DNA from: Pseudogymnoascus verrucosus
Lineage: Eukaryota
Assembly (NCBI GenBank): GCA_001662655.1
Contig: KV460295.1
Length of the DNA: 32,490 bases
Direction: 5' to 3' (one strand)
Shown here: positions 11,551 to 15,618 of the stretch, piece by piece
Layout of the letters: each line of letters begins with the position of its first letter
How positions within the stretch are numbered: the first letter of the stretch is position 1
The notes under the pieces: model-generated
What the model was told of the DNA's origin: nothing
Databases searched by the model: none
Seen by the model: only the letters and a program-made list of their open reading frames with translations
Position numbers and translations under genes: made by a program

Positions 11551-11685
11551 AACGTGCATCCCTGCGTCGAGGGACGCACCCCGTAACGGGACAAATATTG
11601 AGTACTTTGAATTTAATTGATTCTAAATTTATAAATCCATTGGAAATTACAGTACTTTTGAGTCAGCCATATTGTGTGGCTCATT
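11551..11685 (+). repeat. Left inverted-repeat arm
   Basis: aacgtgcatccctgcgtcgagggacgcaccccgtaacgggacaaatattgagtactttgaa...cagccatattgtgtggctcatt. Confidence 0.88.
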
Positions 11686-12090
11686 AAGGGTGTGGAAGCC
11701 TGGTCATGTGTGTGGCGTAGACTGCTATGCGTAGTGTATGAGCAGGTTTCTCGAACTTTCTATAGGGCAGGCGCGCGGCAGCGCGCTAGTGCCTTGTCAC
11801 TGGACCGCCGTCACTCGTCCCCTTCACAACACCATCACCACGGTAGGCTTGCAGATCATGGTGATGTCCCTCGTTCTACCCTCCACTCAGTCTTGCGCAA
11901 TTCCATGACTCTCCGGAGAGTGTGTTTGGGCGGAGCCGGTTTCGAAGTTTACTGTACTTCACTATCGGAATGGGCGGCGGGGATTTTACTTTAGATTTCA
12001 AAGTTTACTATACAAGATTACTCTATACATTGGATTTAATGGCAGTGTAGCAGACGCCGTTTTGACAGACAGCCTGTTTTCGTATTGCAG

Positions 12091-12166
12091 CACTATGATG
12101 ATGGGCGACAGTATGATGAAGTATGATGAGTGTTAGCCAGTATGATGAGGGGTGACAGTATGATGA
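12091..12166 (+). repeat. Five copies of (C/A)A(G/C)TATGATGA upstream of the cargo gene
   Basis: Copies start at 12091, 12109, 12119, 12138 and 12156, giving a degenerate ~18-bp period. Confidence 0.7.
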
Positions 12167-12373
12167 GGTCAGACACGATTCGATTGGCGTATTTGTACGA
12201 GCCAGGTGCTGCTCATTATAAGTAATGCCACCTACTCCTCCCAAAGAAGCTCTCCTCTACCCATACGTTGACTTTCTGAGTTATACGGAAAAAACTTCGC
12301 AACCCTCTCCTTACACATCTCTCTAAAGTAATCTACCAACGAGTTCTTCGTTACCATAGGTCCCTTCTTTAAG

Positions 12374-14706
12374 ATGGGAAAAGAAGAACGGCTTGAGACC
12401 ACGGCAATCGGTGCAATAGGTGTCGGATACAACACCTTCTACGGCACTGCCATGAACAATGTTATCGATCCTGCCACCAGTGGTCCCGTCCAAGGTGCCT
12501 TTGAGCCGCTGGTTCATATCTGCACTTCAAGGCAGGATGTCATGAATGCACTAAACATCGACGCTTCTGTTTCAGTCAATAGCCCTGTAAGATGATTGTC
12601 TCCTCTGATAAATCCTCTCTATGAAATTTATCTTACTCATCCTAATGATCCCATGTACCCTCGAGACATCCCACAGCAGCTATCTTTGCTCATGTCTTAT
12701 TCAACTCTTGAGACATTCTAAAACAGTCATCTTTGCATTCAAACCGTGCTAGAATATCAAATGCTGACTTCCTAATCATCTAGTGGGGATCTTTCGACGA
12801 TAGATTTAAATTCATGAGTCTCCTACAGATAACCACCACTACTGTGGTCATTTTGGTCGAGGCCACACTGAGAACCACTACCACTGTCACTGGAGCCACG
12901 TTCAATGACTCTTTTAAAGATTCCCAAACGCTCTACAAACAAGGCGGAGATTCGTACGTTTCATCAATCACTTCCGGTGGGCAGTTCCTTGCTGCGTACA
13001 GTTTCCGTGCCTATGATGAGGAAACATTCGAATCAATCGTCAATTCTGCCGACGCAACATTCTCTGGATTTTCCACCCAGTTCAGTGCAAACTTTGACAC
13101 AGAAATACAAAGCATCACGAACACAGCGAGTGTGGCGACCGACTTCAATATGAAAGCCATTGGGTTCACGAAGACCCCTGTTCCTCAAACAGCGAATGAA
13201 CTTGTGCCCTTCGTACTAAACTTCAACACCGTTCCAATGGACGCTCCCCAAGTCCTGGAGTTTGGCACCACATGCTACACCGCCTTAGACGACTGCCCGC
13301 CAAACTTTTCCCAAATCAACGCGTATAAGCAACAATACACAGAGTCGCCTTCCATGCTCGTCGATATTGATTATATGGCAGAATCGAACCTGAACATCAT
13401 CGCGAACATTGCTAGTATATACGACAACTATTCCATGCGGTCTGCGGATCCAGATTTCTCCACCCATGTGACGAACACCCAAGCGATCCGGGACTCGATC
13501 GCGACTTGGCGACGTAGTGTCGATAAGGATCCTACCAATCCAAATGTCCTATTGCCAACTATTGACCAGACTCAACTTGTGGTTCCGGTTGCGCAATTCG
13601 CTCTGGTGCCAGCATCTTCAAGTCGCGAGCCCCGTACTGGTGTTCCTTTCGGTGACCTACTTGAGAAAGATATTCCAAGGGGGGTGCTACCTTCCACGAT
13701 CTCTATCCAGTCTGATGATAATTGGGTCACCAAGCTGGCAACGACATACACAACGAAAGATCCAAATGACCCACCGTTTGTAAAGACGAATGGCCACGGA
13801 GAAACTGGAGGCCTCAATCCAATTATACAACTGGGGCCGGGTGAGGTAGTTACTCAGATAGGGGTCAGTTGGAGTACGTTCACGAACCTCGTCCAAATCA
13901 CAACGAACCGTCAGCCAACTATCACCTACGGACCAGGTGTTAACCCAATACAGACATGGAGTCCTCCGCAAAATGGTTGTTTCGTAGGATGGGCCGGCAT
14001 GTGTGGGACTCTCGTCGACGCTCTGTGGCCTGTTTGGGCCGTATTCTACCCGGCGTCTTGGGGTCCTAACCCGCCCGACATCACTCACAGACTAAAAAAG
14101 GGTCTATCTTACGCCCGGTCTAAGGGCATGCCCACCCTAGACAATATCCTCGCCATCATTGGTGGATGGGCAATACCGATGTATCCCACCCTCCGCCAAA
14201 TCTACCCGCAGAAAGGTGGCTGGGAAGGTTGGATGCAAGTGAACATTGCTCTAGGCTTGACTCAAGGGTTCCCAGATACGAAGACTTATCGGGAGCAGTC
14301 CGTGTGGGACGGAAGTAACGAGCGCGTTGACCTCCTCCTGTTGTGTGACGGTGAACCAACACAGATCGTCGAGTTGAAGTGCGAATCATTCTATCAGGAC
14401 AACGGATCCGGCACGTTCAAGACCTTTGTTAGGGCCATGAAAAAGGACGTAGCAAAGATCGTGGTCAATGGCGATGCCCTCAATCCTCTATACAAGCCGG
14501 CCTTATGCTTCGTCATTGGTCTTACCATGGTGGATGAAGTAACGAACTACGCGCTGAACACGACAAGTTGGATCCCTTATCAGGACGCTATTCGCCACAC
14601 CAGGCTCATTGAGGCTAGTGGGACCGGCCCAACATATGTGCCAGCACTATGGCTTCACTACGTCGGCTATTCTATTACAGATAAAGGTGTCCTCCAAGTC
14701 ACCTAG
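12374..14706 (+). CDS. 711-aa multidomain protein: MACPF/CDC-like N-domain + helical linker + jacalin-like beta-prism + PD-(D/E)xK nuclease-like C-domain; 2 exons (12374-12586, 12784-14706)
   Basis: Intron 12587-12783 (GTAAGA...GCTGAC...TAG) joins ORF 12374 in frame to the 630-aa ORF. MACPF-like motif YKQGGDSYVSSITSGG (12934-12981). Jacalin-like text GHGETGG...IQLGPGEVVTQI...ITTN...YGP...FVGWAGMCGTLVDAL (~13636-14049). Nuclease-like GGWEGW...REQ...RVDLLL...IVELKCE (D at 14329, E at 14371, K at 14377). The gene model is well supported; domain names are motif-based. Confidence 0.75.
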
Positions 14707-15485
14707 AGCTTTACCATCTCTTTTGTATGTCTTAAGACCGGAATCGTGCCATCCTTTACTACCACTAATATGCAAATATTCTAGTACTTTAAATACAAAA
14801 TATGTTAAGAAAACAGGATATAGATCATATCATGCGACTATAGTTAACTACGTGATTATTCTGTTGGAAGTTCAGGGGAAGGCCGTGGGACTCTCGGATT
14901 TAGCTTTGTGCTGTTCTACATCTTATCACCCTATTGCGTCTGCTCGTTCTGTGTACCCGAAGGTGAGAGCCGATGCTGAGTGTGAGAAAGCCACCCAAAA
15001 CGCTCCGAAATCCCACGCGCACAGACTTGTCGTGATTGAAAGTATCAACTAAAAGAGAAAACGGCCGATTTTAGCAGATGTTGACTACTTTTTACTCCGC
15101 TCAAGAGGGTACGATCCAACTCAGAGTGTATCGGGAAACCATAATTTTTCGGTAAGGCTTAGCAAGCCGCCACACAGCCACACCTTTATTACCAAGTTAC
15201 CAAGGATCTTTAATCGCTTAATTTAGAAGTACGAACCCATACGACGACGTCGCATAACACAGCACTCCCTAGTCACTACATGGCTGAAAATGATTTTTCA
15301 GCATCGTAGTGAGGCTCAAGAACCCAGATCAAAGTGTTATATGAGTTTAAAAGGTGCAAAGAGCTAGTGGTGGTGCTGTAGGTCGAGGGGCTCTATTATG
15401 CTTCGAATTGACGCACTCCGCAATTAGGCGCGAGGCGACGACGTGATCGTAACTTTCATAGTAGCTACGGTTTTGACTGTTCGGG

Positions 15486-15618
15486 AATAGCTATACAACA
15501 TGGCTAACACAAAAATACTAGAATTTTCAATAGATTCATAAATTTATTATCAATTGTATTCAAAGTACCAATATTTGTCCCGTCACGGAGTGCGTCCCTC
15601 GATGCAGGGATGCACGTT
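15486..15618 (-). repeat. Right inverted-repeat arm
   Basis: Reverse complement reads aacgtgcatccctgcatcgagggacgcactccgtgacgggacaaatattggtactttgaa...tagccatgttgtatagctatt. Confidence 0.88.

What the first reader, a model, noticed from the sequence alone, without database searches (positions are those of the whole stretch)
11551..15618. The toxin-like gene is packaged between ~135-bp inverted repeats: a cargo-only (Pack-type) DNA element
Seen: inverted arms at 11551-11685 and 15486-15618 (~85% identical by hand alignment) enclose exactly one gene with its promoter and 3' region, and no transposase. The interior is not RIP-mutated, unlike the adjacent pogo element. The ACGT terminus after TA on the left resembles Fot1/pogo ends such as the element at 1162. 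Inference: a non-autonomous element captured an effector gene and landed inside the catabolic cluster. Lack of RIP suggests the cargo is single-copy or recently acquired. The absence of a clean right-hand TSD is a real weakness.
Basis: partly seen in the sequence, partly recalled or inferred. Interest (0 to 1): 0.8.

Follow-up and report, generated by a model that had tools for sequence, protein, structure and literature searches.

The report
Toxin-like gene inside a defective transposon
A 4-kb stretch of a Pseudogymnoascus fungus genome has the two ends of a multi-copy cut-and-paste transposon but, instead of a transposase, holds one intact pore-forming-toxin-like gene; it looks like a gene-carrying transposon, though no sign that it has moved with its cargo was found.

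Summary
Arms 11552-11685 and 15486-15617 are inverted repeats (114 of 134 aligned columns identical; terminal 50 nt 94%), absent elsewhere in the window and in shuffles. Between them lies one intact two-exon gene and no transposase. Public contigs of four Pseudogymnoascus organisms show the arms are the exact ends of a dispersed, multi-copy family. Other copies diverge precisely at 11550 and 15618, next to TA. The 3.3-kb interior is single copy. Movement as a unit is not shown. All four organisms carry it at the same site with the same divergence as the flanks, no empty site was found, the right TA reads TT, and no parental copy or autonomous partner was seen. The cargo is a 711-aa protein with a MACPF-like pore-forming domain, a jacalin lectin domain and a PD-(D/E)xK nuclease-like domain. 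"Toxin-like" is fair; "effector" is untested. The closest known case is ToxhAT/ToxTA. Verdict: new member of a known kind, moderate interest.

The parts
11550..11551 (.). Left flanking TA (target-site dinucleotide of the family)
   Evidence: Other copies' contigs stop matching before 11550 in all four runs (table 7). The metagenome copy L001 also has TA abutting ACGTGC.
11552..11685 (+). Left terminal inverted repeat (134 nt), starting ACGTGCATCC
   Evidence: Depth about 5x single copy at 11564 in X1. An internal 8-mer, AGTACTTT, is repeated at 11601 and 11651.
11686..11884 (+). Left subterminal region, shared with few other copies. It contains an open frame (11662-11991) with a weak HTH_psq-like stretch; VPRSTL lies at 11866-11883.
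   Evidence: Raised depth in bin 11608-11991 in all 4 runs; X2 contig breaks at 11884. HTH_psq E 0.027, 14.6 bits, below the 20.4 cutoff. No homologues found.
11885..15164 (+). Single-copy cargo segment of about 3.3 kb (boundaries approximate): promoter region, gene and 3' region
   Evidence: Flat single-contig depth across 11992-15063 in X1-X4, with no other contig at 80% or more. L001 homology is aligned from 15207 and, by eye, continues to about 15165.
12110..12175 (+). Tandem AGTATGATGA-containing motif about 200-260 nt upstream of the start codon (possible promoter element, inferred)
12374..12586 (+). Cargo gene exon 1 (71 codons)
   Evidence: Spliced product identical to P0155.
12587..12783 (+). 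Intron, 197 nt, GTAAGA...CTGAC...TAG
12784..14706 (+). Cargo gene exon 2 (640 codons plus stop). Protein domains: MACPF-like 1-335, jacalin 337-499, PD-(D/E)xK-like 517-711.
15165..15485 (+). Right subterminal region, multi-copy (about 3-9x single copy)
   Evidence: Depths 646-2038 against 212 in X1; several X1-X4 contigs align from 15246-15264 onward. L001 is 84.5% identical over 15207-15618.
15486..15617 (-). Right terminal inverted repeat (132 nt), ending GGATGCACGT
   Evidence: Depth 2658 against 212 at 15573 in X1.
15618..15619 (.). Position where the family has TA; this copy reads TT (followed by TA at 15620-15621)
   Evidence: Sequence. The consensus of other copies' letters behind 15618 begins with A in 4 of 4 runs.

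Best explanation
The unit 11552-15617 is a non-autonomous member of a TA-targeting terminal-inverted-repeat transposon family of Pseudogymnoascus, most likely of the Tc1/mariner-pogo/Fot1 type. The family also has short arms-only copies and intermediate copies.

In this copy the interior, where a transposase would sit, has been replaced by about 3.3 kb of single-copy DNA. That DNA carries one complete gene with its own upstream and downstream regions. The gene encodes a MACPF-like pore-forming domain, a jacalin lectin domain and a PD-(D/E)xK nuclease-like domain.

- Shown: the arms, their exact family boundaries, their multi-copy state, the single-copy interior, the intact gene and the lack of a transposase.
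- Inferred: the superfamily; that the ends could still be recognised by a transposase supplied in trans; and that the structure arose by replacement of the interior, either through gap repair or through re-mobilisation of two neighbouring copies.
- Unresolved: whether the cargo was acquired before the element arrived here (moved as a unit) or in situ. In the four organisms examined it is a fixed, vertically inherited locus.
For: - Arms: 85% identical over 134 columns, with a terminal 28-mer found only at these two places and in no shuffle.
- Family boundaries: in Logan contigs of 4 of 4 organisms, other contigs match the arms and lose the match exactly before 11550 (2, 2, 7 and 7+4 contigs) and behind 15618 (7, 5, 3 and 4 contigs). 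They continue into unrelated sequence (consensus agreement about 0.5).
- Copy number: arm depth is about 5-12x single copy, while interior depth equals that of one contig.
- TA flanks: the consensus behind 15618 starts with A in 4 of 4 runs, and T11550-A11551 lies on the left, so the family is flanked by TA. An independent metagenome copy (L001, 84.5% over 15207-15618) sits in a different flank with TA abutting ACGTGC.
- Copies without the cargo: an X2 contig joins 11884 to 15247, and an X4 contig joins 11648 to 15504, which looks like an arms-only copy.
- Coding content: one intact gene, with the splice model matching a 711-aa database protein exactly. There is no DDE or other transposase domain in any frame of the non-coding parts.
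- Transposase remnant: a weak HTH_psq-like stretch lies on the + strand just inside the left end and finishes at the 11884 breakpoint.
- Gene distribution: its 90% cluster holds proteins named for only four Pseudogymnoascus strains or species, and the next relatives are at 88% and then 43% or less.
Against: - No mobility of the unit was seen. X2 bridges the left junction (11490-11834), X4 bridges the right junction (15590-18500), and X3 and X4 reach about 90 nt past 11490. The interior is present in all four organisms.
- Divergence inside the element (0.19%, 0.95%, 1.05%) equals that of the flanks (0.14-0.26%, 0.85-0.94%, 0.72-1.06%).
- The right TA reads TT.
- No parental copy of the cargo exists at 80% or more in any of the four runs.
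- No autonomous partner was found.
- The HTH_psq match is below Pfam's cutoff, and the frame has no homologues.
- The 'cargo-less' joints rest on one contig each, with short sides (37 and 72 nt) and unknown letters between.
- All of this evidence comes from assembled contigs, not reads.
- Scans of metagenome, prokaryote and viral contig collections gave only one further arm copy.
Confidence: 0.65

Rival explanations
1. In-situ origin without any transposition of the composite. An ordinary non-autonomous copy inserted between the ADH and TauD genes, and the 3.3-kb gene segment was later inserted into it or replaced its interior by repair or recombination. On this reading the 'package' has never moved and the gene did not arrive on the element.
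For: The site and the divergence match the flanks in 4 of 4 organisms, and no second copy of the unit exists. The right flank is imperfect (TT). There is no parental copy.
Against: It needs a separate, unexplained way of bringing a complete foreign or relocated gene exactly into the inside of a roughly 0.8-kb element. The gene's narrow distribution fits arrival by a vehicle at least as well. The present data cannot separate this rival from the main reading.
Confidence: 0.22
2. Two independent insertions. A resident gene happens to be flanked by two separately inserted family copies, each later truncated, leaving one outward-facing left end and one outward-facing right end. There is no single element.
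For: The family is dispersed and multi-copy in all four organisms, and abutting copies occur elsewhere: an X1 contig has a right end followed by a left arm. The window is rich in transposons (9245-11489, 3747-4392). The Pack-TYPE model itself starts from neighbouring insertions (PMC8903248, passages read).
Against: It needs two complementary truncations in the right orientation. No inner arm relics were found: no further repeat of 20 nt or more related to the arms lies in 10500-16800, and no third match of the terminal 28-mer at up to 3 mismatches. No strain among the four has only one end.
Confidence: 0.1
3. The inverted repeats are not transposon ends at all, but a local inverted duplication or a chance similarity around the gene.
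For: None beyond the lack of a perfect TSD.
Against: Copies with other flanks exist in four organisms and in one metagenome contig, all ending at the same bases. There were 0 matches in shuffles.
Confidence: 0.02

Closest known systems
ToxhAT / 'ToxTA' of Bipolaris sorokiniana, Pyrenophora tritici-repentis and Parastagonospora nodorum (PMC12506042; abstract and passages read)
   Same: A fungal, single-copy, non-autonomous class II element bounded by TIRs and flanked by TA (proposed Tc1/Mariner family). It carries a toxin or virulence gene rather than a working transposase.
   Different: ToxhAT is 14 kb with several genes. It has been shown at different positions with single-TA empty sites, and it rides in Starships. 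The present unit is 4.07 kb with one gene, has no demonstrated movement and an imperfect right TA. No sequence relation between the two was tested.
Pack-TYPE transposons of plants, including Pack-Mariner in rice (PMC8903248; abstract and passages read)
   Same: Non-autonomous TIR elements with conserved repeated termini and a less repeated, gene-derived interior. Copy number is low for Mariner-type packs.
   Different: Plant Pack elements usually hold fragments copied from parental genes that remain in the genome. Here the cargo is a whole, apparently functional gene with no parental copy in four genomes, and the host is a fungus with RIP.
pogo/Fot1-type DNA transposons, such as the neighbouring element at 9245-11489
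   Same: TA flanks, TIRs, and a possible psq-type HTH remnant at the 5' end. The neighbour has a DDE_1 remnant (E 2e-10) and a clean TA empty site in three other organisms.
   Different: The arms here are 132-134 nt against 59 nt in the neighbour, and they share no sequence with it. There is no DDE domain.
MITEs of the Tc1/mariner type next to fungal effector genes (mimps in Fusarium oxysporum; PMC3599309, search listing and abstract start only)
   Same: Short non-autonomous TIR elements associated with secreted-protein genes. Arms-only copies of the present family seem to exist (X4 joint 11648->15504).
   Different: Mimps lie beside genes, in their promoters. Here the gene lies between the two ends of one element.

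Membership tests
Tc1/mariner-pogo superfamily, non-autonomous member | TA target-site duplication on both sides | tested here: inconclusive
   The left side is TA (11550-11551). The right side reads TT (15618-19). At family level, 4 of 4 run consensuses begin with A behind 15618, and L001 has TA abutting ACGTGC.
Tc1/mariner-pogo superfamily, non-autonomous member | Terminal inverted repeats that are the exact boundary of a dispersed repeat family | tested here: met
   Loose ends fall exactly at 11550 and 15618 in 4 of 4 runs, with unlike flanks. The arms are 85% alike.
Tc1/mariner-pogo superfamily, non-autonomous member | A cognate DDE transposase gene flanked by the same TIRs somewhere (autonomous partner) | not testable with these tools
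   No fungal genome is held. Only a sub-threshold HTH_psq remnant was seen, and the frame has no homologues.
Tc1/mariner-pogo superfamily, non-autonomous member | Insertion polymorphism or an empty site | tested here: inconclusive
   The element is present at the same site in X1-X4. One X1 contig joins 11548->15664, but the letters between are unknown.
Pack-TYPE (gene-carrying non-autonomous TIR element) | No transposase, with non-transposon coding DNA between conserved family termini | tested here: met
   No transposase domain; an intact 711-aa gene; termini multi-copy and interior single copy.
Pack-TYPE (gene-carrying non-autonomous TIR element) | Captured DNA traceable to a parental locus in the genome | tested here: not met
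   No other contig at 80% or more over 11992-15063 in X1-X4.
Pack-MULE / Mutator-like (considered because of the long TIRs) | TSD of about 9-10 bp (recalled feature) | tested here: not met
   The 8-10 nt on either side do not match (AACGAATCT against TTATAGCTT). The family flanks share only TA.
MACPF/CDC pore-forming superfamily (cargo residues 1-335) | MACPF fold | tested here: met
   Model pLDDT 89.9. Foldseek hits: TgPLP1 MACPF 5own E 2.3e-6, aegerolysin-L pore 9uj0, MPEG-1, stonustoxin, Mpf2Ba1. Profile against PDB sequences: 9uj0 E 2.1e-10.
MACPF/CDC pore-forming superfamily (cargo residues 1-335) | Match to Pfam MACPF (PF01823) | tested here: not met
   Pfam returned only Jacalin for P0002 at E<=0.01. 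No MACPF hit at E<=1 for the exon-2 product.
Jacalin-like lectin (cargo residues 337-499) | Pfam PF01419 above the gathering score, and a beta-prism fold | tested here: met
   38.7 bits against a cutoff of 22. PDB jacalins: E 3e-21 by profile and 1e-7 by Foldseek.
PD-(D/E)xK nuclease-like fold (cargo residues 517-711) | alpha-beta-beta-beta-alpha-beta core with D...(D/E)xK residues | tested here: inconclusive
   Model pLDDT 92.6. VIA-align top hits are CinB Z 7.7, R.SwaI 7.2 and CidB 6.9, and most of the top 30 are nucleases of this fold, but Z is under 8. Foldseek gave nothing at E<=0.001. D76 is invariant and E90 and K92 nearly invariant across 16 sequences. Activity was not tested.

The most novel reading that the evidence does not exclude
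The unit is a still-mobilisable 'Pack-pogo': a miniature TA-targeting transposon shell that carries a complete pore-former-lectin-nuclease toxin gene. On this reading it brought the gene into the P. verrucosus-group lineage, possibly from another fungus, which would make small cut-and-paste elements vehicles for whole toxin genes in fungi, alongside Starships and ToxhAT.
Probability: 0.2. Interest if true: 0.7.

Novelty: new member of a known kind. Interest (0 to 1): 0.45.

Why it matters
Whole, working genes inside non-autonomous cut-and-paste transposons are well documented in plants, mostly as fragments. In the papers I read the fungal case is ToxhAT/ToxTA. My three literature searches listed no paper describing such an element in Pseudogymnoascus, but I read only listings and two papers.

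A second, much smaller case, with a single MACPF-type toxin-like gene in a genus that includes the bat white-nose pathogen, would show how accessory toxin genes can be packaged for movement. It would also give a simple system of 4 kb and one gene for testing trans-mobilisation.

The cargo's three-domain layout (pore former, lectin, nuclease-like domain) is unusual in itself and is uncharacterised in the sources seen.

Tried and rejected
- Own-genome search: no genome is held.
- Earlier scan notes by sequence, genome, relatives and words: nothing.
- Exact-pattern scans for the arm: metagenome contigs 0 hits, then 1 (L001); prokaryote genome contigs 0; viral contigs 0. These collections hold little fungal DNA, so the blanks say nothing about copy number.
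- Search for relatives of the left subterminal open frame among longer proteins: none among 295 candidates.
- Search for named relatives of the C-terminal domain: one unnamed 174-aa protein.
- Protein Atlas: nearest clusters score only 0.77 (Ascomycota, jacalin). This is a lead only.
- Foldseek on the C-terminal domain: no match at E<=0.001.
- Mutator-like reading of the long TIRs: rejected for lack of a 9-10-bp duplication.
- PIF/Harbinger reading (TWA duplication): rejected. The conserved bases are mirror-symmetric (TA-A...T-TA), so the third base belongs to the TIR.
- No clean joint across the element appeared in the three other organisms. A part without cover, or a missing joint, in contig data is not evidence of absence.
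Full report
**1. The observation**

- The repeat finder recovers the two arms as 11551-11600/15569-15618 (50 nt, 94%) and 11602-11681/15489-15568 (80 nt, 81%), separated by a 1-nt indel.
- A global alignment of 11552-11685 with the reverse complement of 15486-15617 has 114 matches, 13 transitions, 5 transversions and 2 gaps, i.e. 85%.
- The terminal 28-mer occurs only at these two places in the window and in none of 100 shuffles.
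- The left arm is preceded by TA (11550-11551) and begins ACGTGCATCC. The right arm ends GGATGCACGT and is followed by TT, then TA.

**2. What lies between the arms**

- There is one gene: exon 1 12374-12586, a 197-nt intron with GTAAGA, CTGAC and TAG signals, and exon 2 12784-14706.
- The spliced product equals database protein P0155 at 711 of 711 residues. It differs at 6 positions from P0002 and at 21 from P0157. These proteins carry names of Pseudogymnoascus strains or species.
- No transposase domain is found in any of the six frames of 11552-12373 or 14707-15617 with stops read as X.
- The only hint is a sub-threshold HTH_psq match: E 0.027, 14.6 bits against a cutoff of 20.4. It lies in the + strand frame 11662-11991. 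Its VPRSTL motif ends at 11883, and the frame has no homologues.
- RIP indices show that the element is not RIP-mutated (CRI -0.45 to 0.38). The adjacent element scores 0.62 and window 1-5000 scores 1.39.

**3. Are the arms transposon ends?**

No genome is held for the window, so I used public runs. Twenty runs hold part of window 8000-17900. I laid the Logan contigs of four of them on 7000-18500 at 80% likeness: X1, which may be the source, and X2, X3 and X4, which are other organisms.

- *Depth.* The interior has the depth of a single contig in every run (212, 52, 40 and 23). The arms reach 1100 (at 11564) and 2658 (at 15573) in X1, with similar ratios in the others.
- *Boundaries.* Contigs of other copies lose their match exactly before 11550 (2, 2, 7 and 7+4 contigs in X1-X4) and behind 15618 (7, 5, 3 and 4 contigs). 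Their continuations agree only about 0.5 with each other, which means different flanks.
- *TA flanks.* The consensus behind 15618 begins with A in all four runs. With T11550-A11551 on the left, the family is therefore flanked by TA, and the element proper is 11552-15617.
- *An independent copy.* One metagenome contig (L001) matches 15207-15618 at 84.5%, lies in an unrelated flank and has TA abutting ACGTGC.
- *Extent of the repeated ends.* The repeated right end is longer than the arm, from about 15165 or 15246 to 15618. On the left, extra copies reach into 11686-11884.
- *Other forms.* One contig each suggests other family forms. X4 joins 11648->15504 (arms only). X2 joins 11884->15247 (no cargo, letters between unknown). 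An X1 contig has a right end followed by a left arm.

So the arms are real ends of a heterogeneous, dispersed TIR family that targets TA.

**4. Has the unit moved?**

I found no evidence that it has.

- X2 bridges the left junction (11490-11834). X4 bridges the right junction (15590-18500). X3 and X4 contigs run about 90 nt past 11490, and the interior is present in all four.
- Divergence inside the element (0.19%, 0.95%, 1.05% for X2, X3, X4) matches the flanks (0.14-0.26%, 0.85-0.94%, 0.72-1.06%). It has therefore been inherited at this site since these organisms diverged.
- The neighbouring pogo/Fot1-type element 9245-11489 gives a contrast. It has a DDE_1 remnant (E 2e-10) and is absent from X2-X4 by a clean joint 9242->11490 with a shared TA. 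That shows what a true polymorphic insertion looks like in the same data.
- One unexplained X1 contig at single-copy depth joins 11548->15664 and carries the C at 11520 seen in X2-X4. The letters between are unknown, so it could be an empty-site-like sequence or something else.
- No second copy of the cargo at 80% or more exists in any of the four runs. A Pack-MULE-style copy of a resident parental gene is therefore not supported.

**5. The cargo**

- A full HMMER search finds 493 cluster representatives at E<=0.001. They are typically 500-530 aa and cover residues about 10-500. The last 190 residues or so also occur as free-standing proteins of 200-250 aa.
- Pfam sees only Jacalin (38.7 bits).
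- A profile of 64 sequences hits PDB jacalins (E 3e-21). For residues 11-187 it hits the aegerolysin-L pore protein 9uj0 (E 2.1e-10), with weak hits to GNIP1Aa and Plu-MACPF.
- The AlphaFold model (pLDDT 89.9) matches jacalins and MACPF proteins: TgPLP1 at E 2.3e-6, MPEG-1, stonustoxin and Mpf2Ba1.
- The C-terminal domain folded alone (pLDDT 92.6) has an alpha-beta-beta-beta-alpha-beta core. Its best VIA-align matches are PD-(D/E)xK nucleases (CinB Z 7.7, R.SwaI 7.2, CidB 6.9), and most of the top 30 are of that fold. D76 is invariant and E90 and K92 nearly invariant.
- Because Z is under 8 and Foldseek was silent, I call the domain nuclease-like, not a nuclease.
- The N-terminus shows no hydrophobic signal peptide by eye, so 'effector' is untested.
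- Named relatives are few: a Leotiomycete (Xylogone), a chytrid, and two plant records.
- The gene's 90% cluster holds proteins named for four Pseudogymnoascus strains or species only.

**6. Mechanism**

The best reading is a deletion derivative of a pogo/Fot1-like element that kept both ends, about 330 nt on the left and about 450 nt on the right. Its interior was replaced by a gene-bearing segment.

- The replacement could have happened during gap repair after excision. It could also have happened by joint re-mobilisation of two neighbouring copies, which is the model proposed for Pack-TYPE elements (PMC8903248, passages read).
- With intact ends it could in principle be moved by a family transposase supplied in trans. 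That step is inferred.

**7. Comparison and verdict**

- The closest known case is ToxhAT/'ToxTA': a non-autonomous, TIR-bounded, TA-flanked fungal element that carries ToxA, with proven empty sites (PMC12506042, abstract and passages read).
- Plant Pack-Mariner elements are the structural analogue.
- This is a new, smaller, single-gene member of that kind, with mobility unproven. I score interest at 0.45.

Noticed in passing
window 9243-11491: A pogo/Fot1-type element (DDE_1 remnant E 2e-10 with stops read as X; 74 stops in one frame; GC 0.35, CRI 0.62) has 59-nt TIRs 98% alike and a TA duplication. It is absent from X2, X3 and X4 by a clean joint 9242->11490. This looks like a strain-specific insertion of an already degraded copy with intact ends, which suggests mobilisation in trans.
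   Followed up: partly
window 3747-4392: A MITE-like 646-bp unit with 137-nt inverted arms 88% alike lies inside the RIP-like AT-rich block 1-5000. It is unrelated to the arms studied.
   Followed up: no
window 14104-14703 (cargo residues about 512-711): The PD-(D/E)xK nuclease-like C-terminal domain, with invariant GGWEGW, RE and D plus nearly invariant ExK, is fused to a MACPF-jacalin module here. It also occurs as free-standing 200-250-aa proteins in metagenomes. This is an uncharacterised domain family.
   Followed up: partly
window 11508-11548 and 15664-15704: In run X1 only, one contig at single-copy depth joins 11548 to 15664 (letters between unknown). It has C at 11520 like X2-X4, whereas the window has T. 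It could be an empty-site-like paralogue or allele.
   Followed up: no
window 12110-12175: A tandem motif of about 18 nt containing AGTATGATGA, 2.6-3.1 copies, lies upstream of the cargo start codon.
   Followed up: no
window 5300-8700 and 15739-19700: The neighbours are an aldehyde dehydrogenase, a Zn-alcohol dehydrogenase, a TauD-family dioxygenase and a sugar/MFS transporter.
   Followed up: no
window 31500-32490: G-rich low-complexity repeats lie at the window's 3' end.
   Followed up: no
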